A program made the translations under genes and the position numbers. A DNA stretch of 64,000 nt from Promethearchaeota archaeon (GTDB taxonomy: Archaea; Asgardarchaeota; Lokiarchaeia; Sigyniarchaeales; SOKP01), in assembly GCA_019058245.1 (NCBI GenBank), contig JAHPZJ010000013.1, positions 329,166 to 393,165 on the forward strand, written 5' to 3'. The notes under the pieces are model-generated. The model did not search any database, was not told where the DNA came from, and was given only the letters and a program-made list of their open reading frames with translations. Below are positions 1 through 9,386 of this stretch, one piece after another. Position 1 is the first letter of the stretch; the number at the start of each line of letters is the position of its first letter.

Positions 1-644
1 TTACTACAATGATATTCGGTTTAGTAGGTTATGTAGTTGCTCATCCCACAGAAATTGTAAATTATACGGGAGCAACTCATGTTTCAACTGGTTGTCATGG
101 TACAAATGGCGTTGCTTCTAGCGGAACTCTTCAAGTATCAGCCTCAACTTCTGGTAAGTTGATTACTCTTACTGCTACAATACAAGGATTTACAGATGCA
201 ATTACGACAAATAATAGATCTGGGACATTTTCTATCGGAATTCCTTATGATCTTGGAGATAATAGGGAATTTGGACTAGGAATAGCGCAGAATACTGTTA
301 ATGGCGAAACTAATTATTGGGGAATTGGTATATGGGACGTTGAGTTAGATTCAAATGGAAATACAGTTAATCCCTTGAAATTTAGAGTGCTAGCTCCTGA
401 AGCTGAAGGATCATATAATTTAATTGTTGCTGTTATAAATGGAGCAAATACAGCGGGAGATGTACAAAGTATTATTTATATGCACAAAATAATATCTGTT
501 ATAGTAACCGGTGGAAGTGTAACAATTGCTTCTCTAACTATGATCTTTCCTCTAAATAATATATTTCTTTATGCAACTTTCGGAATATTTGGTACTGGGA
601 TGATGATTTTCGTGTTTAAGCGTAGAAAAATTAGAAAAAATTAA
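1..644 (+). CDS. Exported, C-terminally membrane-anchored beta-rich (Reeler-like) protein with an atypical heme-binding-like motif GATHVSTGCHG; probably 5'-truncated by the window edge
   Basis: Frame is open upstream of the ATG at 9. Hydrophobic N-terminus ending VVA/HP. Its only Cys is in THVSTGCHG (69-101). C-terminal TM helix followed by KRRKIRKN. Homologous to the N-terminal domain of 5551..6423 and lies directly upstream of ccmC. Confidence 0.7.
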   Translation, partial: TTMIFGLVGYVVAHPTEIVNYTGATHVSTGCHGTNGVASSGTLQVSASTSGKLITLTATIQGFTDAITTNNRSGTFSIGIPYDLGDNREFGLGIAQNTVNGETNYWGIGIWDVELDSNGNTVNPLKFRVLAPEAEGSYNLIVAVINGANTAGDVQSIIYMHKIISVIVTGGSVTIASLTMIFPLNNIFLYATFGIFGTGMMIFVFKRRKIRKN

Positions 645-667
645 CTAAATCTAACTATAATAATTAA

Positions 668-677
668 TTTTTTTTTT
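668..677 (+). terminator. Possible archaeal oligo-U terminator
   Basis: T10 run starting about 23 nt after the stop of the first ORF. Weak, because the background is AT-rich. Confidence 0.25.
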
Positions 678-717
678 ATAAACCTTAAAATTTTAAATGA
701 AAAAACAAATTTTTTAA

Positions 718-1524
718 ATGTCTGTTAAAAAAGTAAAGGAAAGATCTAATTCAAATTTAAAGAGTATAATGATACGAAATAAAAAAGATCAATTAGATCT
801 ATTGAAAATCGTTAAACATCATTTATTATTAACAATTTCACTTATTATGTTAATTATTAGTTTATTATTAATTATAATTTTAACTTCAAATAATCTAATT
901 ATTTGGGGTTCACCTAATCGAATTATCTATACTATTTTTTTTTATCATGTATCCGGAGCATGGCTTTCATATTTCTCTTTTGGAATTAGTTTGATTTTTC
1001 ATATTCTATATTTAAAGTCTCGTAAAAATATTTGGATTAACTTGGGTAAAAATAGTATACTAGTTGGAGTATGTTTTTCTGGATTTACTCTTATAACAGG
1101 TTCGCTTTGGTTTAATGCTACATCGGGAGATTATAATAATATTTTTTGGGTATGGGGTGATGCTCGACAGACTACTACATTAGTATTATTCCTTTCTTAT
1201 TTATCTTATCTTGTATTTGCTAAAATGATTGAAGACAGGGAAAAAAAGGCTAAATTAACAGCACTACTTGGTATCGTGCTATTTCCAACAGTTCCCTTAA
1301 GTTACATTTCTACAATAGTTTTTACAAGTTTACATCCTTTAATTAACCCAACTCCTGGTGAACCTGGAAATATTTACTGGGATCCTTTGAAACTATTTAT
1401 GTTATTTTTCAATTTAATTGCAATGACCATATTATTTATGTATATTATAAAAGAATTAACTTTTTTAGATAAAAAAAAAGATGAATTAGAGAAAATTAAA
1501 CAAATTCGTTTATTGAGAGATTAA
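718..1524 (+). CDS. ccmC: Cytochrome c biogenesis heme exporter CcmC
   Basis: About 6 TM helices. FFYHVSGAW (first His), divergent WWD loop WVWGDARQTT and SLHP (second His). Sits in the ccm cluster. Confidence 0.9.
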   Translation: MSVKKVKERSNSNLKSIMIRNKKDQLDLLKIVKHHLLLTISLIMLIISLLLIIILTSNNLIIWGSPNRIIYTIFFYHVSGAWLSYFSFGISLIFHILYLKSRKNIWINLGKNSILVGVCFSGFTLITGSLWFNATSGDYNNIFWVWGDARQTTTLVLFLSYLSYLVFAKMIEDREKKAKLTALLGIVLFPTVPLSYISTIVFTSLHPLINPTPGEPGNIYWDPLKLFMLFFNLIAMTILFMYIIKELTFLDKKKDELEKIKQIRLLRD

Positions 1525-1530
1525 TTAAAG

Positions 1531-1677
1531 ATGTCAATAGAGTATCTGGACCAAGATTTACTAACAATAATTATAAGTTATTTGTTATTCTGGGCTATTT
1601 TAATCATCCTAATTTTATATCCAAAACTAAAGTTAAAAAAAGTTCTTAAAAGTATTAAAAGATTAGAAAATTCATAA
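1531..1677 (+). CDS. ccmD: CcmD-like small membrane protein (48 aa, not in the ORF track)
   Basis: MSIEYLDQDLLTIIISYLLFWAILIILILYPKLKLKKVLKSIKRLENS*: one TM helix with a Y..W..Y pattern and a basic tail, exactly between ccmC and ccmE. Confidence 0.75.
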   Translation: MSIEYLDQDLLTIIISYLLFWAILIILILYPKLKLKKVLKSIKRLENS

Positions 1678-1691
1678 AACAGGTGTGAAAT

Positions 1692-2030
1692 GTGAAAAAA
1701 TCTAGAATTATAGCAATTATTGGAGTTGTTGTTTCGATTGGTGTTATAATAGCTTTATTATCTATAAATACACGTCCTTACCTCAAAGTATCTCAAGTTG
1801 TATCACATTCCACTCGTTATGATAATAAAGAAATTCAAATTATTGGTATTGTCGAAGGATATGTTTCCAGTGATTTTAATTTAACTGAGGGTGAGCATAG
1901 TATCTTTATTGATATTAATAACATTTCTCCTCCTAGTACGCTAAAAAATGGAATTGAAGTTGTTGTAATTGGAATTTTTAGTTCTAACCTAATTTTAGTA
2001 GCGGAACAGATTCTTACTCAATGTAGTTAG
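1692..2030 (+). CDS. ccmE: Heme chaperone CcmE, Cys-type, ending directly after the Cys
   Basis: N-terminal TM anchor, then YLKVSQV, an OB-fold-like core with GIEVVVIG, and C-terminal AEQILTQCS*. RBS aggtg precedes the GTG. Confidence 0.85.
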   Translation: MKKSRIIAIIGVVVSIGVIIALLSINTRPYLKVSQVVSHSTRYDNKEIQIIGIVEGYVSSDFNLTEGEHSIFIDINNISPPSTLKNGIEVVVIGIFSSNLILVAEQILTQCS

Positions 2031-2035
2031 AAAAT

Positions 2036-2761
2036 TTAGTCATACAAAAGTACATGAGAAATTAAAGTTAAGATTGAAATCATAAGGATTATATGAGCAA
2101 ACAAAAATCCTATTTCATAAATTAGATCATGTACTAATACTCCTTGTAATAGTTTTATATTTAATGAAATTATTGGAGTTGTTATAGGAATAATTAGAGG
2201 GAAAAGTATAATTGGTAAGATAAAAGACTTGTTTTTAGCATACATTGATAAAGCGGACACCAGACTTCCGCTTATAGATAAATCAAAAGTAGGCAATATG
2301 ATTCCTAAAATGATGTAGGTTAATACTTGAATTGAACTTATTCTACCTATTAACGGTGCAGATAAAAAGAAACTAAAAAGGTACAAAATACTCTCGATTA
2401 AAGTCATTAAAATTAAACAATATATAGTTTTACTGTAAAGAATTATATTTGGATAGATTGGAGATGAAATTAGACCATTTATCGTACCCGATTCCTTTTC
2501 TTTGATGAATAATTTTGCCATAATATAGATAAGAGTAAAAAAGATAATTATCCAATTTTGAATCATAAAAATCTCTAAAGGCATATTTTGATATTGAGTT
2601 CCAAAATTATAAACTGATGAGAATATGAAAATTGAGATAATATCAAAAAGAATTACAGCAAATAAATCATTCACTTGCCGAACTTCAGATTTAATATCTT
2701 TTATAAGTATAGTTTTAAATTGCTTTAATTTTAATTTTAATGATATATTTTCTGTTTTCAA
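2036..2761 (-). CDS. ccmB: Heme exporter permease CcmB
   Basis: KDIKSEVR, FIKEKESGTINGLISSP and ILPIILFPLIIP are CcmB motifs. About 6 TM helices, downstream of ccmA. Confidence 0.9.
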   Translation of the reverse strand: MKTENISLKLKLKQFKTILIKDIKSEVRQVNDLFAVILFDIISIFIFSSVYNFGTQYQNMPLEIFMIQNWIIIFFTLIYIMAKLFIKEKESGTINGLISSPIYPNIILYSKTIYCLILMTLIESILYLFSFFLSAPLIGRISSIQVLTYIILGIILPTFDLSISGSLVSALSMYAKNKSFILPIILFPLIIPITTPIISLNIKLLQGVLVHDLIYEIGFLFAHIILMISILTLISHVLLYD

Positions 2762-2773
2762 AAAAACACCTTT

Positions 2774-3493
2774 TTAAAATAGTGATTCAATTTCATCAAA
2801 TTCTTCATCTGTAATCCTTTTTTCAATTCTGCCTTTTTTTAAAATAATCAAATCATTACATAATTGTTGAAATAAGTCTGTCTTATGGGTCGTAAGAATT
2901 ACTGTAACATTTTTTTTTTGATTCATTTCTCTGATAAATTTAATTAGCCTATCTGTTGCTGCATAATCTAAACCAGAAAAGGGTTCATCTAAAAATAATA
3001 TTGAGGGTCTATGGATTATAGATCTTATCAATTCTACCTTTTGTTTCATTCCATGGGATAAAGTTCTTACAGGTTCATTAATCCAATCTGTAAGCTCAAA
3101 TCTTTCAACTAATTTGTTAATTTCCCGCATAATATCTCCTTTTTCAAAAATTAAATGTAAGTTACAATAGAATTTTAAATTCTCATAAACAGTTAATTCC
3201 TCATATAGAAAGGATTCATCAATAGTTATTCCAATATTCTGATAAATAATTCTTGAATTTTCTTTATAATTCATTCCCCCTATTTCAACATTTCCAAAAG
3301 TAGGTTTAATCAATCCTGATAGTATTTTAATAAGAGTTGTTTTACCCGCTCCATTCGCACCAGCTATCCCAAATATTGTACTTTTTTTAATAGTAAAAGA
3401 ATTATTTTTGAGGGCAAAAAAAAACCCATATTGTTTTGAAATGTTATTACAATTTATTAAATTATTATCGGATTCAACCATAATCTGAATCAT
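2774..3493 (-). CDS. ccmA: ABC ATPase CcmA
   Basis: Walker A GANGAGKTT, signature LSHGMKQK, Walker B LFLDEPFSGLD and H-loop TTH. 12 nt from ccmB. Confidence 0.88.
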   Translation of the reverse strand: MIQIMVESDNNLINCNNISKQYGFFFALKNNSFTIKKSTIFGIAGANGAGKTTLIKILSGLIKPTFGNVEIGGMNYKENSRIIYQNIGITIDESFLYEELTVYENLKFYCNLHLIFEKGDIMREINKLVERFELTDWINEPVRTLSHGMKQKVELIRSIIHRPSILFLDEPFSGLDYAATDRLIKFIREMNQKKNVTVILTTHKTDLFQQLCNDLIILKKGRIEKRITDEEFDEIESLF

Positions 3494-3668
3494 ATATATT
3501 ATGAAATTTAAAAATTATAATAATTTGAAGGAATTAAAAGTAAAAAAATAATTGTTATTTAATTTATATTATCGAATTTAATTTTCTTGTTATTAATTTG
3601 AATAGGATTGAAATTTCATTAGTTGTTATAATCTATAAACCATCTAAATAAAATTTGTGAATTGAAAC

Positions 3669-5360
3669 TCAATTTTTGTTGAAAAAGGTTGTTAATATTG
3701 AAGGAATTATCCCGCTCAATAGAAAAATAAAGCCTGTGATGTAAAAAATATCTTGAAAAATCCAAAAATTCTTACTTATTAAAAATCCGATCATAATAAA
3801 TGAGATTCCAGCATGAATTATTGTTTTAGAATTTAACTTGAAAAAATGTTTGATTCCTTTCTTAAATTTTAAATTTGTTATAATAGACCAAAAAGACACT
3901 ATTACCGCTATAAAAAATATTCCTATAGAGGGATTAATCCAAATATCAAGAAGCACTAATCCTATGACTGAAAATATTGATTGAATCGTAAAGACTATAA
4001 TTATCAAGCATATCATTAATTTTATCCCAATTTTTTCATAAGTAATACAAAAGATTAATGATAAAGACAAACAAATAGCTAATGTTAATGTAGTTATAAT
4101 AAAATAATCTGTCCCTATATAAATTATGTTTATGGGAAAGAATTCTGATAGTAATACCGTTAAAGGTGTAACAAAAAGCCCGAATATGCATACAAAAGAT
4201 AAGCTAAATAAAAATATGTAACTTAAGTAATTAAAGAGAAGCTTCAATTTTCTATAATCCTGTAATATATAATCAAGAATAATATATATTACGTAGAGAG
4301 AAAATATTATTAAAATTAATCCAGTTATAGTCAACCAAATAATTAATTCAGTTCCTCCAATATAAGAATGAAGTGGAGATATTCCTGCTCTTGTAACTAG
4401 TGTAGAAAAAATAATAGCAATAAAGATTAATCCAAGATTTACTTTCACTAAATTTTGATTTTTCTTTTGAAAAGTCATAGTATGAAAGTAAGCAGTAATG
4501 AAAAACCATGGGATAAGAGATACTGTTTCAACCTGATCCCAACCCCAATATCTTCCCCAGTTCAATGCAATCTTAGCCCAATATGCACCCAATCCAATAC
4601 CTAAAGTAAGAATCAACCATCCAAACTTTAAAGTAAATTTATAAAAATTTTGTTGAAACGATTCTAATAGAGTTGTGTCTTTTGTTAAAATTTCTGCAAT
4701 CACGACTGTAAATGGAATTAGAAAAATCGCATATGCAATAAATGTAAAAAATGGATGCCAAATCATAAATGGAGATATTAAAAGTGGATTCAAGCCTAAT
4801 CCATCAGAAGGAGACGATGATTGGAGTTCAAAAGGATTTAAATAAAATAATATTATCAAAAAAAGGGATGAAACTATCGATGATATTATAACAGATCGAA
4901 TGAATACGATATCTTTATTGTTATTATTTCCCATTCGAAATAGATTGATCATTATTGCATTAAATAACATCCATGTCATGATGGATCCTTCTTCACCAGC
5001 CCAAATAGCAACAATTTTATAAATTATAGGGAGTGAATTATTGCTAAAACTCCACACATATATAATTTTATAGATGTTATTTAGAAAGCTGTAAACCATA
5101 ATTAAAAATAAAATCACCGATAGGCTCATTGATAAAATTGATAAAAAATAAGCATTTTGTTTTTTAACAATTAATAGAATAAGATCCAAAATCATGATTA
5201 TTATTAAAAAAATGATTAAAAAGTTGCCTAGAAAGGATATAAAAACAATTCTATAACTTAATTCTATTAAATCTAATACTAAAGGAATTATTAATATAAA
5301 GATAAGAATTAAGCTGAAATTAATAATAACCAGCTTTTTTATCGATATATTAATAGACAT
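3669..5360 (-). CDS. ccmF: Holocytochrome c synthase CcmF
   Basis: AIWAGEEGS, GLGLNPLL..PFMIWHPF, WWD loop WGRYWGWDQVE, YFH, VTRAG..PLHSY and late IIHAG. Highly hydrophobic. Confidence 0.93.
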   Translation of the reverse strand: MSINISIKKLVIINFSLILIFILIIPLVLDLIELSYRIVFISFLGNFLIIFLIIIMILDLILLIVKKQNAYFLSILSMSLSVILFLIMVYSFLNNIYKIIYVWSFSNNSLPIIYKIVAIWAGEEGSIMTWMLFNAIMINLFRMGNNNNKDIVFIRSVIISSIVSSLFLIILFYLNPFELQSSSPSDGLGLNPLLISPFMIWHPFFTFIAYAIFLIPFTVVIAEILTKDTTLLESFQQNFYKFTLKFGWLILTLGIGLGAYWAKIALNWGRYWGWDQVETVSLIPWFFITAYFHTMTFQKKNQNLVKVNLGLIFIAIIFSTLVTRAGISPLHSYIGGTELIIWLTITGLILIIFSLYVIYIILDYILQDYRKLKLLFNYLSYIFLFSLSFVCIFGLFVTPLTVLLSEFFPINIIYIGTDYFIITTLTLAICLSLSLIFCITYEKIGIKLMICLIIIVFTIQSIFSVIGLVLLDIWINPSIGIFFIAVIVSFWSIITNLKFKKGIKHFFKLNSKTIIHAGISFIMIGFLISKNFWIFQDIFYITGFIFLLSGIIPSILTTFFNKN

Positions 5361-5550
5361 TAAAAAAACACCTAGAATGTATTATTTAAGGGTTTTAATA
5401 AAGGTTTTTAAAAATAAAACTTGGGTATAATTTAGGTGCAATTTTTGCTATAAATCTTTAAAAAAATCTTTATTTTTAAATTATATAAACAAGATATAAA
5501 AAGCAATACTCATAGATTAAAAATATTTCAGCTTGAGTAAATGATAAATC

Positions 5551-6423
5551 ATGAATAAGAAAATTTTTTACTTTGGTACTTGCATTATTGTGTTGATGAC
5601 TTTCTCACTTTTTATCTTCGGAACCGCAAGGCCTCAATTTGGAGACACTCATTCTGAGAGTGGATGTCATGGATCATCGGGGGGTTATACAATTTCGTAT
5701 ACCACACCTGAAGAAAATCTTATAAATAATACTCCTTATTTTACTTTTAACATTTCTGCTAGTGGACCTGATTTATTTGTACAAGCTTATCCTGGTGCGA
5801 AAGATAATGACAATTTTAATATTATTCCTTCAAATAATAAAATAGTCGACGATTCGGAAAATGATTTAAATCCAAATCACGATGCAATGAATATCATTTT
5901 CAATGTAACACCAACTGTAGAACAAAAATCTTATACATTGTTCATACTTGCAGGTAATAATATAACTGGGGGTCGACAATTCGCTTATGTTGAGATTGTA
6001 ATTGGAATTCAGCCTGGATTTGATTTCTCTTCTGTAATACTCGATCATTTAGGTTTATATTTAGGATTACCAGCTTTGTTATTAGTTTCGATTGCAACTG
6101 TCCTAGTTTTAGTAAATGAAAATAAATTCGTAAAGGTTCATGGATTACTGGCTGGTGGTGCATGGATTTTAACAATCATTAATGTTATTGTTGCTGTAAT
6201 AAAAATACCTGCGAGAGCTTGGCTTGGGGGTTATAATTTAGTTTATCATCTTCCTCATATAATTCTTGGCTCGATTGGTTTGGTTACTGGTTTTTTAAGT
6301 ATATTGTTTGGAATTGCGGCAGAGAGGAGACCAGCAAAAATCACAGGATATATTACTGTACTCTGTTGGTGGGGTGCTTTCTTTTTAGGTTTTTTTCTAA
6401 ACTCCAATTTATTTTTAATTTGA
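5551..6423 (+). CDS. Exported GxTHxxxGCHG domain fused to a 4-TM His-containing cytochrome b561-like domain
   Basis: Signal peptide, then GDTHSESGCHG (5641-5673). Four C-terminal TM helices with His in LDHLG, KVHGLL and YHLPHII. Divergent from ccmF. Confidence 0.65.
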   Translation: MNKKIFYFGTCIIVLMTFSLFIFGTARPQFGDTHSESGCHGSSGGYTISYTTPEENLINNTPYFTFNISASGPDLFVQAYPGAKDNDNFNIIPSNNKIVDDSENDLNPNHDAMNIIFNVTPTVEQKSYTLFILAGNNITGGRQFAYVEIVIGIQPGFDFSSVILDHLGLYLGLPALLLVSIATVLVLVNENKFVKVHGLLAGGAWILTIINVIVAVIKIPARAWLGGYNLVYHLPHIILGSIGLVTGFLSILFGIAAERRPAKITGYITVLCWWGAFFLGFFLNSNLFLI

Positions 6424-6445
6424 TAATATTAAGTGATATCTCAAG

Positions 6446-7939
6446 ATGGGTCAATCTAATAATAATTTGAAAAGTAATTATAGGAAAAGCAGAGAAAAGG
6501 ATCTTGAAAATCAATTTTTAGAATTTATATCTCCTTATCACGTAAGCACAAATCCTTTTGAACTTGAATCTGCTTCAGCAGATCTTACTTCTCTACCCGC
6601 TTACCATTATAAATTCAAGAAAAAATATTTAGCTAGTTATGTTATCCGTCCAGCCAACATGAATGAACTATCATTAGCTATAAAAAAGTGTAGAGATCTT
6701 AATATTCCCGTAACAATTCGAGCTGCTGGGACGTCATGTTTTTCTTCAGCAACACCTTCAATGGGAGGTGTAATTATAGATATACGTAGAGTAAATAAAG
6801 TCCATGAAATAAATCAAGAGAAAATGACGGTAAAAGTAGGAAGTGGAATATCTTGGCTAAATTTGATAGAAAAATTATCTGATTATGGACTTGAACCAAA
6901 AACTTTCCCAACTAGTTTTAAAACTTCATGTGTAGGAGGTTTTATTGCAACTCCAGGAAAAGCTGGTATAGGAGTATTGAAATATGGAACTATGGAATCC
7001 ACAATTATTTCTGTAGATCTAGTTAAACCAGATGGCACTGTCATCAAAGTTTCGAGAGATTCTGATCAAGAAATAAGTCTTAATGATCTTGTAGGTACAT
7101 ACGGTATATTTGGAGCAATAGGAAATGTTGAATTATCCATTACTACCCTAAAAACCTCTTTAGAGATAATAGGTTATGGATTTAACTCAATCGAGCAAGC
7201 AATAAATTTTTATTTATTAATAAAAGAGGATTTACCCAATAAACCATTATTTCTTTCAATTTCAGAAAGAAATTTTGAAAAATATTCACATATTGCTTTT
7301 CCGAAAGAGGAATGGATTGTTTGGGCAGTATATTATGATAAACCTGAACTAACATCAAAAAGTATATCAGATGTTAAAAACCAAGCCTCCAAGTTAAATT
7401 GTGTAGAAATTGAGGGTACTTATTTAAAAGAAAAGTGGCGTGATATTAGTGATGCTGAGGTATCGATAGGATCTTCAACAAGAAACCTGATATTCCAGGA
7501 ATATTGGATCTCTGATAAGAGATTAAAAAAGTTTATGGAAATATATGTTAAAAAAGTTAAGAATTATAAATTTCCTACAGCCTCATACGCAATTTCAGGA
7601 GAAAAAGGTTGGACAAGAGTGAAAATTTTTGGTTTAACAGATATCGATAGAACTATAGAATTTTTCGCAGTTAAAGCTTTCTTACATGATTTAACTGTCC
7701 AAGCCTTCAATCAAGAAGATAGACTATATACTATTGGCATTGTCAATACATTTTACTTATTAAAGTATAAATCAGAAGAAGTAAAGAAATGGAAGAATCT
7801 AAAGGATAAGTTAGACCCTAAACACTTATTCAATTCATATAGATTAACTAAAGCGAGAATGAAATTTTGGAGAGTCTCATTACTTTTTAACATGGCAAAG
7901 CTATTGTATAAAATATTTAAAATAAAACGCTCTAAATAA
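6446..7939 (+). CDS. FAD-binding oxidoreductase (GlcD / D-lactate dehydrogenase, VAO/PCMH family)
   Basis: VIRPAN, PVTIRAAGTS, SCVGGFIAT, GTYGIFG and C-terminal KDKLDPKHLFN. Confidence 0.85.
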   Translation: MGQSNNNLKSNYRKSREKDLENQFLEFISPYHVSTNPFELESASADLTSLPAYHYKFKKKYLASYVIRPANMNELSLAIKKCRDLNIPVTIRAAGTSCFSSATPSMGGVIIDIRRVNKVHEINQEKMTVKVGSGISWLNLIEKLSDYGLEPKTFPTSFKTSCVGGFIATPGKAGIGVLKYGTMESTIISVDLVKPDGTVIKVSRDSDQEISLNDLVGTYGIFGAIGNVELSITTLKTSLEIIGYGFNSIEQAINFYLLIKEDLPNKPLFLSISERNFEKYSHIAFPKEEWIVWAVYYDKPELTSKSISDVKNQASKLNCVEIEGTYLKEKWRDISDAEVSIGSSTRNLIFQEYWISDKRLKKFMEIYVKKVKNYKFPTASYAISGEKGWTRVKIFGLTDIDRTIEFFAVKAFLHDLTVQAFNQEDRLYTIGIVNTFYLLKYKSEEVKKWKNLKDKLDPKHLFNSYRLTKARMKFWRVSLLFNMAKLLYKIFKIKRSK

Positions 7940-8042
7940 TAAAACCAAATCAACATAAAGATGAATAATATATAACGATCATATTTAATAAAAATTAATT
8001 ATATTTTCAACAAGAAAACAATTAAAAAAGAGATAATGCTGA

Positions 8043-9386
8043 ATGAGTGAAGGAAAAGAAAAAGTTGATTTAAAAAATATAGTAACTTCTGGTCCACCTG
8101 TAGCAGGTTTAGTTTCTCCATCAAGAGAAAATTTAGTCGAACCTTCAGATAAGTATAAAGATGAAAAATCTTTTGAACGATGTACTCATTGTGGTTACTG
8201 CCGTCATGTTTGTAAAGTTTATAATACCTCTTGGTGTGAAACTGACTATGCTGGAGGTCGTAATAGAATTATCAAAGCATTGGATCGAAAGGATATTAAA
8301 TTCGACAAGGAACAAATAATACCTTCAGTTTTTCGTTGTATGTTATGTGGTAATTGCAAAGTTGTGTGTCCAGTTCAAGTAGATACACTAAGTGTTTTCC
8401 AGAATTTTAGGAAAAAAGTAGTAAAAAAAGGAGCAATACCTGAAAAATTAAAAATCCTTAAAAGTTCGATTATAGAAAATAATAATCCATTTCTAGAAAA
8501 ACATAGTGATAGATTTAATTGGATAAATGCTTGTGAAGAGGGAGCTGAAGCTTATGAAAGGAGTTCTCAGAGACTGGAACCCCAAGTAAAAGAGAAAGGA
8601 GATTATTCTGTCGGGTATTTTGTTGGGTGTACATCTTGTTATCGAAATAAAGAACTTGTATCGGCTACTAGTCGTGTTTTAAAGAAATTAGGCGTTGAGT
8701 TCACACTTTTTCCCGAAGAAAGATGTTGTGGTTCTGTATTGTTTCGAACGGGATTAGAAGATGAAGCTATGGAACTTGTAAAGCATAATTATGAAATGAT
8801 TCGTAAAAGTGGAGTAAAAGAAGTTGTTTTTTCATGTTCGGGTTGTTTTTCAACGTTTACACTTGAATATTCCAAATTTGCTAATCATAACCTTGGATTT
8901 GATTTGTATCATCTTACTCAATATGCTTTAAAAATTGTAAAGGAAAAAAATCTTAAAATTAGATATACAAAACGCACAAAAGATGATCCTTTACTTATTA
9001 CTTATCATGATCCATGTCATTTAGGCAGATATTGCAATGTTTTTGAAGAACCTAGAGAACTTATTCAAAGAATTGAAGGAGTAAAATTATTTGAAATGAA
9101 ACACAATAGAGAAATGTCTTGGTGTTGCGGTGCAGGAGGTGGTGTGAAAGCTCTATATGGAGATATGGCACTTGAAGTAGGAAGGGACAGAATCTCGGAA
9201 ACACGTGCTTGTATGGTTCGAATGCGAGAAGATCGTTTAAAAGAAGCAATTGAGACATCGGCAGAAGTTCTTGTAAGTTCCTGTGTCTTCTGTAAGAATA
9301 ATTTATTTCAAGTCGCTACTGAAGATAATTCTCCAATAAAAGTTATGGATATTTCACAACTTTTAGCTGATTGTGAGTTTTATTAG
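8043..9386 (+). CDS. Fe-S oxidoreductase with 2x[4Fe-4S] and two CCG domains (HdrD/GlpC/GlcF-like)
   Basis: CTHCGYCRHVC, CMLCGNCKVVCP, YFVGC, CCGS, CSGC, YHDPCHLGR, CCGAGGG and CVFC. Confidence 0.9.
   Translation: MSEGKEKVDLKNIVTSGPPVAGLVSPSRENLVEPSDKYKDEKSFERCTHCGYCRHVCKVYNTSWCETDYAGGRNRIIKALDRKDIKFDKEQIIPSVFRCMLCGNCKVVCPVQVDTLSVFQNFRKKVVKKGAIPEKLKILKSSIIENNNPFLEKHSDRFNWINACEEGAEAYERSSQRLEPQVKEKGDYSVGYFVGCTSCYRNKELVSATSRVLKKLGVEFTLFPEERCCGSVLFRTGLEDEAMELVKHNYEMIRKSGVKEVVFSCSGCFSTFTLEYSKFANHNLGFDLYHLTQYALKIVKEKNLKIRYTKRTKDDPLLITYHDPCHLGRYCNVFEEPRELIQRIEGVKLFEMKHNREMSWCCGAGGGVKALYGDMALEVGRDRISETRACMVRMREDRLKEAIETSAEVLVSSCVFCKNNLFQVATEDNSPIKVMDISQLLADCEFY

What the first reader, a model, noticed from the sequence alone, without database searches (positions are those of the whole stretch)
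1..6423. Cytochrome c maturation (System I) locus whose two flanking exported proteins carry HxxxGCH instead of CxxCH
Seen: ccmC-D-E, ccmA-B and ccmF are bracketed by two exported paralogs, one upstream of ccmC and one divergent from ccmF. They share G-x-T-H-x-x-x-G-C-H-G just after the signal peptide (GATHVSTGCHG at 69-101; GDTHSESGCHG at 5641-5673). They also match weakly further on (GDNREF/KDNDNF; FRVLAPEAEGSYNL/FNVTPTVEQKSYTL). That Cys is the only one in each extracellular domain, and no exported CxxCH protein, ccmG or ccmH is visible in the window. Established: System I normally ligates heme to two Cys of CxxCH or CxnCH, and natural single-thioether hemes (euglenozoan cytochromes c/c1, heme ci of cytochrome b6) use other machineries. 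Inference: these proteins are the dedicated substrates. The spacing equals CxxxxCH with His in place of the first Cys, so heme may be bound by one thioether, with the first His acting either as second axial ligand or as a His-vinyl adduct as in CcmE. CxxCH scans would miss such cytochromes.
Basis: partly seen in the sequence, partly recalled or inferred. Interest (0 to 1): 0.9.

Follow-up and report, generated by a model that had tools for sequence, protein, structure and literature searches.

The report
Asgard cytochromes with His-for-Cys haem motif
A Lokiarchaeial haem-attachment (Ccm) gene cluster is surrounded by exported proteins whose haem-binding motif reads H-x(2-4)-C-H instead of CxxCH; relatives in other Asgard archaea carry the normal motif at the same spot, so these are most likely a new kind of single-cysteine c-type cytochrome with its own trimmed-down maturation machinery.

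Summary
The locus holds three exported paralogs, one of them just upstream of the window. Across more than 200 homologs from four subfamilies, only three columns are invariant: the His, Cys and His of H-x(2-4)-C-H. HxxCH is the commonest form.

A profile search found distant homologs, including orthologs in another Asgard family. They carry CxxCH, Cx4CH or CxCH at the same aligned position, so His replaces Cys1 of a c-haem motif.

- In 201 Asgard genomes, all 27 with the domain also have ccmC/ccmF. Within the window's own family, the same 7 of 41 genomes have both.
- In all 7 loci every exported CH protein is His-type. CcmE ends at ...QCS, so it lacks the Tyr of archaeal CxxxY. CcmF lacks its C-terminal periplasmic domain.
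- This genome (76% complete) has no exported CxxCH protein, no CcmH and no true CcmG.

Best reading (0.7): these are single-thioether c-type cytochromes matured by a streamlined System I. Paralog B feeds a conserved FAD/Fe-S dehydrogenase module. The role of the His and covalent haem binding are untested. Other first-stage notes in this scan flagged the same stretch, but no paper was found. This is a new variant of a known kind.

The parts
1..644 (+). Exported paralog A, cut at the window start. The full gene is 225 aa and begins 34 nt upstream. It has a signal peptide, GATHVSTGCHG (Hx4CH), an Ig-like beta-sandwich and a C-terminal TM anchor with a basic tail.
   Evidence: There are 27 homologs, and H38, C43 and H44 are invariant. 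No Pfam or NCBIfam family matches.
69..101 (+). Motif GATHVSTGCHG in A.
   Evidence: It aligns with CxxCH/Cx4CH of homologs.
718..1524 (+). ccmC. It has a WWD-type loop (FWVWGDARQ) and His residues in FFYHVSG and SLHPLIN.
   Evidence: PF01578, E 1.5e-15. TIGR01191, E 6.8e-21, below the cut-off.
1531..1677 (+). ccmD-like small membrane protein (48 aa).
   Evidence: PF04995, E 2.1e-5, 24.9 bits against a cut-off of 25.6. A 47-48 aa ORF sits in the same position in L002, L004 and L029.
1692..2030 (+). ccmE, Cys-type. It ends at ...ILTQCS*, so the Tyr of the archaeal CxxxY motif is missing.
   Evidence: PF03100, E 7.9e-8. The C-terminus is the same in 10 related loci. CcmE from family f7 ends ...CPSK/RY plus a tail.
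2036..2761 (-). ccmB (ABC permease).
   Evidence: PF03379, E 7.7e-11.
2774..3493 (-). ccmA (ABC ATPase).
   Evidence: PF00005, E 2.7e-30.
3669..5360 (-). Short ccmF (563 aa). It keeps the WWD motif (WGRYWGWDQVE) and four His (WHP, FHT, LHSY, IIHAG). It lacks the roughly 130-aa C-terminal periplasmic domain and the last TM helix, and it has a roughly 40-aa N-terminal extension.
   Evidence: PF01578, E 1.1e-23. It aligns to Thermus CcmF 6ZMQ, E 3.1e-23, and to f7 CcmF. No separate C-terminal piece was found in the genome.
5551..6423 (+). Exported paralog B (290 aa). It has a signal peptide, GDTHSESGCHG, an Ig-like sandwich and a 4-helix membrane domain with invariant H166, H197 and H236 (plus H233, E190, R259).
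   Evidence: 160 homologs, alignment A1, AF2 model with pLDDT 84.6. f7 orthologs carry CxxCH/Cx4CH and the same TM domain.
5641..5673 (+). Motif GDTHSESGCHG in B.
6446..7939 (+). FAD-binding, GlcD-like flavoprotein. It always follows B.
   Evidence: PF01565, E 2.5e-31. TIGR00387, E 3e-31, below the cut-off. The synteny is seen in L002, L004, L027 and L028.
8043..9386 (+). Fe-S / 2xCCG protein (HdrD/TfrB/GlcF-like), the third gene of the B module.
   Evidence: PF02754, E 2.3e-31, and PF13183. TfrB model, E 3e-54, below the cut-off.

Best explanation
A, Z and B belong to an Asgard-specific, undescribed family of extracytoplasmic, membrane-anchored monohaem c-type cytochromes. Each has a signal peptide, then a haem motif 8-20 residues after the cleavage site, then an Ig-like beta-sandwich. 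In the Lokiarchaeial lineage the first Cys of CxxCH/Cx4CH is replaced by His, giving H-x(2-4)-C-H.

The adjacent, streamlined System I consists of CcmABCD, a Cys-type CcmE truncated right after the Cys, and a CcmF without its C-terminal periplasmic domain. It has no CcmH or CcmG. It most likely attaches haem to the single Cys, presumably through the 4-vinyl thioether as for Cys2 of CxxCH. The following His would be the proximal iron ligand.

A and Z, and in relatives the 900-1700-aa giants, would be surface haem proteins. B fuses the haem domain to a His-rich 4-helix membrane domain, probably haem b-binding. It is always followed by a GlcD-like flavoprotein and an HdrD-like Fe-S/CCG protein. 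This suggests a conduit that carries electrons from a cytoplasmic dehydrogenase across the membrane to the cell surface.

Shown here: homology of the motif to CxnCH, invariance, synteny and phyletic co-occurrence. Inferred: covalent haem, a single thioether, the electron path and the role of the His.
For: 1. In an alignment of 38 ectodomains from four subfamilies, the only invariant columns are H, C and H. H, C and H are also invariant or nearly so within the A and B families.
2. A profile search of 1.84 billion representatives gave 199 hits. Of the 145 examined, 60 have H-x(1-5)-CH and 36 have C-x(2-4)-CH at the same N-terminal place. Others have CxCH or F/Y/x-xx-CH.
3. Orthologs in family f7 carry DCSTCH, NCGNSGCH and similar motifs. 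They share B's TM domain (phmmer E about 1e-11). They sit with ccm genes and 7-8-haem cytochromes. In alignment A4 the His falls in the Cys1 column.
4. Synteny with ccmCDE/BA/F is kept at 45-49% identity and in six further genomes that are 93-100% complete.
5. All 27 of 27 domain-positive genomes are ccm-positive, out of 201 sampled. The sets are identical within the window's own family, 7 of 41.
6. No exported C-x(1-4)-CH ORF was found in G000. The f7-type multihaem protein was not found in five near-complete genomes of the family.
7. The machinery differs in step with the substrates. CcmE ends ...QCS* in all 11 His-type loci, against CPSK/RY in 4 f7 genomes. CcmF is 563-579 aa against 685-688 aa, and the C-terminal domain is missing.
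8. CcmF keeps WWD and the four His, so the lyase looks functional.
9. From the literature: the E. coli Ccm handles single-Cys cytochromes very poorly and traps a CcmE-haem-cytochrome adduct (PMC3268396). A dedicated, altered system would therefore be needed.
Against: - There is no biochemical evidence for haem in any member.
- Neither ALAD nor PBG deaminase was found in the ccm-bearing genomes, so haem would have to be acquired. The same holds for the f7 genomes, which have unmistakable multihaem cytochromes, so this does not argue specifically against the His-type.
- G000 is only 76% complete. A full census of exported CxxCH proteins in a complete relative was not finished.
- The link between trimmed CcmE/CcmF and His-type substrates rests on essentially one lineage contrast. 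One trimmed-Ccm locus also holds a CxxCH B-type protein, so the trimmed system is not exclusive to His-type substrates.
- The motif loop has low confidence in the AF2 models, and fold searches give only generic Ig-like or four-helix matches.
- No conserved distal ligand was found.
Confidence: 0.7

Rival explanations
1. The haem is doubly linked. The Cys forms the usual thioether, and the motif His forms a covalent His-vinyl bond where Cys1 would bind. This would resolve the CcmE(Cys)-haem intermediate in a way that mirrors bacterial CcmE(His130)-haem being resolved by a substrate Cys.
For: - The His is invariant in every paralog of the 7 genomes of the family. It is kept with both x2 and x4 spacings, exactly as Cys1 is in CxxCH/Cx4CH.
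- It occupies the Cys1 column.
- His-vinyl bonds exist in CcmE (PMC3268396).
- In E. coli, single-Cys substrates trap the CcmE-haem-cytochrome adduct (PMC3268396), so some residue may be needed to release it.
Against: - Other family members have F, Y, P or other residues at that position (FSSCH, NPSVCH, ELGCH). A nucleophile there is therefore not required family-wide.
- No chemistry was tested.
- A His adduct at the alpha-carbon, with c-type stereochemistry, has no precedent from System I.
Confidence: 0.15
2. The HxnCH proteins are degenerate ex-cytochromes that no longer bind haem covalently, binding it non-covalently or not at all. The Ccm genes would serve other, unseen substrates.
For: - G000 is 76% complete.
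- E. coli Ccm does not mature single-Cys variants efficiently (PMC3268396).
- The first position is labile in the family.
Against: - C and H are invariant in all subfamilies, and H-C-H is invariant across the lineage.
- Ccm genes are present only in genomes that have these proteins, and always next to them.
- No exported C-x(1-4)-CH ORF was found in G000.
- The f7-type multihaem protein was not found in five near-complete relatives.
Confidence: 0.1
3. The H-x(2-4)-C-H loop is a non-haem metal site (Cu, Zn, Ni or Fe) on a surface Ig-like domain. This would resemble CopC/YcnI-type proteins and their membrane-domain fusions. The ccm neighbourhood would be incidental.
For: - His and Cys ligands lie close to the mature N-terminus.
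- The architecture (ectodomain plus anchor, or ectodomain plus a His-rich 4-TM domain) resembles YcnI/YcnJ-type copper proteins (own knowledge).
- There is no haem synthesis pathway.
Against: - Homologs and orthologs carry canonical CxxCH/Cx4CH at the same columns, next to ccm and multihaem genes.
- The domain and ccm co-occur perfectly.
- No match to any copper or zinc family was found in Pfam or NCBIfam.
Confidence: 0.05

Closest known systems
Canonical c-type cytochromes matured by the streamlined archaeal System I (CcmABCEF of Methanosarcina acetivorans; PMC9084895)
   Same: The substrates are exported, with a ...CH dyad shortly after the signal peptide. CcmA, B, C, E (Cys-type) and F are present, and CcmH/I are absent. 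Homologs of the substrates carry CxxCH.
   Different: Cys1 of the substrate is replaced by His. CcmE lacks the Tyr of CxxxY, which that paper calls universal in archaeal CcmE. CcmF lacks the C-terminal part altogether, whereas in M. acetivorans it is a separate, secondary gene, ccmF1. A ccmD-like gene is present.
Euglenozoan mitochondrial cytochromes c and c1 (A/FxxCH, single thioether; PMC8262978)
   Same: It is a natural single-Cys haem motif with the second Cys and His kept. A few members of the Asgard family even read FxxCH (P0153).
   Different: The fold is unrelated. The maturation is also different: a divergent HCCS-type system in kinetoplastids, against System I here. His at the first position is not known there.
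Dedicated CcmF/CcsA-type lyases for variant motifs (NrfE for CxxCK; CcsA1 for CX15CH). Own knowledge; the NrfE models were the best NCBIfam hits.
   Same: A lyase of the CcmF/NrfE family is associated with a non-standard haem motif. The window's CcmF scores best to the NrfE/CcmF subfamily models, below their cut-offs.
   Different: In those systems the variant lyase is an extra paralog beside a normal CcmF. Here it is the only one, and it is shortened.
Cytochrome f
   Same: The order of parts matches: a cleaved signal peptide, a mature N-terminus X-Pro (Pro at least 90% conserved), an early haem motif, a beta-sandwich and a C-terminal TM anchor.
   Different: There is no detectable sequence or fold match. 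The motif lies only 13-19 residues from the N-terminus. Ligation by the N-terminal amine is pure conjecture here.
HdrDE / GlcDF / Dld-HdrD-type membrane-linked dehydrogenases
   Same: A CCG/Fe-S subunit, here with a GlcD-like flavoprotein, sits next to a His-rich membrane subunit.
   Different: The membrane subunit is a 4-helix domain that matches no Pfam or NCBIfam family and is fused to an extracellular c-type haem domain. All family matches fall below the curated cut-offs.

Membership tests
c-type cytochrome (covalent haem at CxxCH) | Export to the extracytoplasmic side | tested here: met
   The proteins have an N-terminal MKKK plus hydrophobic segment plus A|xP. In A and Z the ectodomain is followed by a TM anchor.
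c-type cytochrome (covalent haem at CxxCH) | Cys-x-x-Cys-His motif (two Cys) | tested here: not met
   The first Cys is His in all 20 or so proteins of the 7 genomes of the family. There is only one Cys per ectodomain.
c-type cytochrome (covalent haem at CxxCH) | Homology to proteins with a canonical motif at the same site | tested here: met
   36 of 145 profile hits and the f7 orthologs have CxxCH/Cx4CH in the aligned columns.
c-type cytochrome (covalent haem at CxxCH) | Covalently bound haem | not testable with these tools
   This needs haem staining, a pyridine haemochrome spectrum and mass spectrometry.
System I (Ccm) cytochrome c maturation | CcmA/CcmB ABC pair and CcmC with a WWD loop | tested here: met
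   PF00005, PF03379 and PF01578 match. TIGR01191 matches CcmC below its cut-off.
System I (Ccm) cytochrome c maturation | CcmE with an (H/C)xxxY haem-binding motif | tested here: not met
   The CcmE domain is present (PF03100) and the Cys is present, but the protein ends ...QCS* with no Tyr. This holds in all 11 His-type loci. f7 has CPSK/RY.
System I (Ccm) cytochrome c maturation | CcmF with WWD, two periplasmic His and two TM His | tested here: met
   WHP, WGRYWGWDQVE, FHT and LHSY align to 6ZMQ. IIHAG aligns with f7 MLHLG. The assignment of these His to P-His/TM-His roles is from own knowledge.
System I (Ccm) cytochrome c maturation | Full-length CcmF with a C-terminal periplasmic domain | tested here: not met
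   About 130 C-terminal residues present in f7 CcmF are missing. No separate fragment was found by tblastn. The genome is 76% complete.
System I (Ccm) cytochrome c maturation | CcmH and CcmG thiol-redox components | tested here: not met
   PF03918 gave no match. TIGR00385 gave only 25 bits against a cut-off of 123. These components are also lacking, or dispensable, in other archaea (PMC9084895).
Cytochrome f-like architecture | Fold similarity of the beta-sandwich to the cytochrome f large domain | tested here: inconclusive
   The domain-only model (pLDDT 84) gave only generic Ig-like matches. The best Z was 8.1, and no Foldseek hit reached E 1e-3.
GlcD/GlcF- or HdrD-type dehydrogenase (module downstream of B) | FAD_binding_4 flavoprotein plus Fe-S/CCG subunit at family cut-off | tested here: inconclusive
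   The Pfam domains are clear. All NCBIfam equivalog models match below their cut-offs.

The most novel reading that the evidence does not exclude
Lokiarchaeia make a previously unknown class of haem c. System I would attach the haem through one thioether plus one His-vinyl bond, or through one thioether with an obligatory His that resolves the CcmE-Cys adduct. These archaea cannot make haem themselves. They would use the cytochromes in a dehydrogenase-to-surface electron conduit for syntrophy.
Probability: 0.15. Interest if true: 0.92.

Novelty: new variant of a known kind. Interest (0 to 1): 0.8.

Why it matters
System I is thought to require two Cys. E. coli Ccm barely matures single-Cys cytochromes and stalls at a CcmE-haem-cytochrome adduct (PMC3268396). 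A natural System I whose only visible substrates read HxxCH or Hx4CH would therefore be a ready-made experiment on how haem leaves CcmE and what CcmF recognises. This system also has a CcmE lacking the Tyr ligand and a CcmF lacking its C-terminal domain.

The finding also shows that CxxCH-based scans miss a whole family of cytochromes in Lokiarchaeia, a lineage of the Asgard archaea (the closest archaeal relatives of eukaryotes). These organisms are usually modelled as cytochrome-free fermenters or syntrophs. The conserved B-flavoprotein-Fe-S/CCG module hints at extracellular electron transfer. The lack of ALAD and PBG deaminase suggests that haem is scavenged from partners. Both points bear on models of Asgard syntrophy.

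Tried and rejected
- Pfam and NCBIfam: no family matched A, Z, B or their CxxCH homologs.
- Fold searches with the whole B model (Foldseek PDB, VIA wide, ESM Atlas) returned only the generic "beta-sandwich plus 4 helices" and four-helix bundles. These included cytochrome b562, cytochrome c' and STEAP at Z 9-11, below the level that is meaningful for helical bundles.
- Fold searches with the domain-only model returned only generic Ig-like folds. Cytochrome f was not among the matches.
- An Atlas feature search with B's membrane domain scored 0.77 or less (DUF420, cytochrome b561). These are leads only.
- A census of CxxCH-coding sites in a 100%-complete relative (G065) gave 186 six-frame matches, of which only 100 were listed. 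I could not turn this into an exported-protein count and abandoned it.
- Complex prediction was not used. An enzyme-substrate pair with a haem cofactor is not what it tests.
- Literature searches for Asgard or Lokiarchaeia with Ccm/CcmF, cytochrome c/haem or multihaem/extracellular electron transfer, and for 'HXXCH', found nothing describing this.

Full report
**Observation**

The first 9.4 kb of the window encode these genes, in order:
- exported protein A, cut by the window start
- ccmC, a 48-aa ccmD-like ORF, and ccmE
- on the other strand, ccmB, ccmA and ccmF
- exported protein B, a FAD_binding_4 flavoprotein and an Fe-S/2xCCG protein

The window is G000:C13:329166-393165, in a 3.09-Mb assembly of 28% GC that is 76% complete. 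By the names of its homologs the genome is a Lokiarchaeial (Promethearchaeota) MAG.

Reading upstream showed that A is 225 aa in full. A third paralog, Z (224 aa, motif DHGSCH), precedes it. Before Z lie an Lrp-type regulator and an Mvh/Hdr-type hydrogenase cluster.

Among 4606 naive ORFs in the genome, only A, Z and B have a signal-like segment followed within 60 residues by H-x(1-5)-C-H. None of the 39 CxxCH ORFs, and no ORF with C-x(1-4)-CH, has an N-terminal signal. They look like cytoplasmic Fe-S, Zn and hydrogenase proteins.

**The motif is the functional core of a real family**

B has 160 database homologs and A has 27. All come from Asgard MAGs or sediment metagenomes, and all are annotated as hypothetical. 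The A and B ectodomains are homologous (hhalign 97.7%, E 1.4e-12).

I aligned 38 ectodomains from B, A, Z, a Lokiarchaeum GC14_75-type paralog and a 1513-aa giant. The only invariant columns are His, Cys and His. The spacing varies. HxxCH is the commonest form (DHEVCH, SHTGCH). Hx3CH and Hx4CH also occur, and the window's A and B are Hx4CH. This is the same spacing variation known for CxxCH/Cx4CH.

**His replaces Cys1 of a c-haem motif**

A profile of the ectodomain, searched against 1.84 billion representatives, gave 199 hits. Of the 145 examined:
- 60 have H-x(1-5)-CH.
- 36 have C-x(2-4)-CH at the same N-terminal place. Examples are DCGECH, DNCNSCH, DDCLSCH, CNDDGCH and CSTSGCH.
- Others have the contracted form CxCH (DCTCH, GCGCH).
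- Others have one Cys and no His (FSSCH, NPSVCH, ELGCH).

In a second Asgard family, f7, the orthologs carry canonical motifs (EVDCSTCH, NCGNSGCH, TSECGNCH). These are about 200-aa A-type proteins and about 400-aa B-type proteins, and the B-type ones share B's membrane domain (phmmer E about 1e-11). They lie with ccm genes and 7-8-haem cytochromes. In the joint alignment the Lokiarchaeial His falls in the Cys1 column, and only C, H and one Asn are invariant.

On a tree of 145 representatives the first position is H in 70, C in 53 and other in 22. This needs at least about 23 changes, against about 60 for shuffled labels. The position is therefore labile but clustered on the tree. The tree is built on a short domain, so treat this as an indication only.

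No Pfam or NCBIfam model covers the domain, even in CxxCH members. The family itself is undescribed.

**Link to Ccm**

The gene order is paralog(s)-ccmC-ccmD-ccmE, then ccmB, ccmA and ccmF on the other strand, then B-FAD-CCG. This order is kept in three groups of loci:
- loci whose B is 45-49% identical
- a JGI contig
- six further genomes of the window's family that are 93-100% complete

Some of these loci have a 900-1700-aa giant inserted. Its only Cys is in an N-terminal HxxCH or Hx3CH motif.

In an even sample of 201 genomes of the phylum, 27 have the domain and 38 have CcmC/CcmF. All 27 domain-positive genomes are ccm-positive. In the window's family the same 7 of 41 genomes have both. 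Relatives are not independent, and physical linkage on one island would give the same pattern. Even so, an intact Ccm system is seen in this family only together with these proteins.

In all 7 genomes every exported CH protein at the locus is His-type. The f7-type multihaem cytochrome was not found in five of them.

**The machinery differs in step**

f7 CcmE ends ...C-P-S-K/R-Y plus a tail, which is the archaeal CxxxY motif. CcmE at all 11 His-type loci stops at ...Q-C-S(T). A recent study states that archaeal CcmE universally has CxxxY (PMC9084895).

The Lokiarchaeial CcmF is 563-579 aa. It keeps the WWD motif and four His. Three of them align to Thermus CcmF 6ZMQ and the fourth aligns to f7 CcmF. 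It lacks the roughly 130-aa C-terminal periplasmic domain and last helix of f7 CcmF, which is 685-688 aa. No separate fragment exists in G000.

No CcmH and no true CcmG were found, as in other archaea.

One caveat matters here. The JGI contig with trimmed CcmE and CcmF carries three HxnCH proteins and also a B-type protein with DCGECH. The trimmed system is therefore probably not restricted to His-type substrates. The co-variation is in effect a single lineage contrast.

**Mechanism**

The best-supported reading is single-Cys c-type cytochromes matured by this streamlined System I. In E. coli, single-Cys cytochromes are very poor Ccm substrates, and XXXCH variants accumulate as a CcmE-haem-cytochrome adduct (PMC3268396). 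A lineage whose visible substrates are all single-Cys would need altered release chemistry, and the changes in CcmE and CcmF are candidates for that.

The His could have one of three roles:
- a recognition or packing residue
- a nucleophile that frees haem from CcmE-Cys
- a residue that forms a His-vinyl bond of its own

None of these can be decided here. Family members with F, Y or P at this position argue that a nucleophile is not universally needed.

A distal-ligand role is unlikely, because the residue sits four to six positions before the proximal His on the same turn (inference). No conserved Met or His exists elsewhere in the ectodomain. A Pro at mature position 2 is at least 90% conserved. 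It recalls cytochrome f, but fold searches gave only generic Ig-like matches.

**The B module**

B's C-terminal four-helix membrane domain has invariant H166, H197 and H236 (model). B is always followed by a GlcD-like flavoprotein and an HdrD/TfrB-like Fe-S/CCG protein, or by split Fe-S and CCG proteins. This holds even where ccm is not nearby. I infer a dehydrogenase-to-surface electron path. This is an inference from domain content and synteny only.

**Haem supply**

Neither ALAD nor PBG deaminase was found in G000 (ALAD only) or in five near-complete genomes of the family. ALAD is also missing from five f7 genomes that encode multihaem cytochromes. These ccm-bearing Asgard archaea therefore appear to depend on external haem or precursors.

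**Novelty**

Searches of the paper library for Asgard or Lokiarchaeia with Ccm, CcmF, cytochrome c or multihaem, and for 'HXXCH', found no description. Other first-stage notes of this scan flagged the same stretch, but none had been followed up.

I rate this a new variant of a known kind. The proteins are c-type cytochromes and the machinery is System I, but both the motif and the CcmE/CcmF pair depart from the definitions of those families.

Noticed in passing
Whole genomes G000, G065, G113, G192, G132, G109 (own family) and G005, G140, G087, G134, G200 (family f7): ALAD (PF00490) was not found in any of these 11 ccm-bearing Asgard genomes. PBG deaminase (PF01379) was not found in the five near-complete genomes of the window's family. 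These organisms seem unable to make tetrapyrroles yet keep a haem-attachment system, and in f7 also 7-8-haem cytochromes.
   Followed up: partly
window 5551-9386; also L002 10001-13828, L004 10001-13944, L027 10001-13626, L028 10001-13630: There is a conserved triad: a B-type haem-domain/4-TM fusion, a FAD_binding_4 flavoprotein and an Fe-S/CCG protein. It is kept even where no ccm genes are within 10 kb (L027). In L026 the partners are separate Fe-S and CCG proteins. It may be a transmembrane electron conduit.
   Followed up: partly
L004 3213-7754 (-); L028 3153-8270 (+); L030 4590-7280; L031 6431-9298; L032 3977-6853: Giant proteins of 900-1700 aa are inserted in the ccm locus. Each starts with a signal peptide and an HxxCH or Hx3CH haem domain, followed by Ig-like (Big_7) repeats. 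Most have a single Cys in the whole protein.
   Followed up: partly
L002 1-1009 (+): An EB_dh (PF09459) domain protein with GCQVMCH (a Cx3CH motif) and a C-terminal TM anchor lies upstream of the ccm locus of a Lokiarchaeum GC14_75-like contig. No EB_dh match was found in G000.
   Followed up: partly
L007 803-2194, L009 2154-3569, L013 4475-5848 (family f7 genomes): Multihaem cytochromes c with 7-8 haems (weak DmsE/decahaem-like matches) lie next to the canonical-motif orthologs of A and B and the ccm genes in another Asgard family.
   Followed up: partly
Representatives P0183, P0184, P0188, P0191, P0197, P0210, P0168, P0237; P0153/P0293: Homologs of the same domain carry a contracted CxCH motif (DCTCH, GCGCH) or a Euglenozoa-like FxxCH motif (DFSSCH) at the haem site.
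   Followed up: no
L001 13587-14150 (1 kb upstream of the window): An Lrp/AsnC-type regulator with a Cys-rich C-terminal tail lies between the hydrogenase operon and the cytochrome/ccm operon.
   Followed up: no
L001 8431-12769 (upstream of the window): An Mvh-type [NiFe] hydrogenase (large and small subunits) with HdrB/C-like genes lies a few kb upstream of the locus, on the opposite strand.
   Followed up: no
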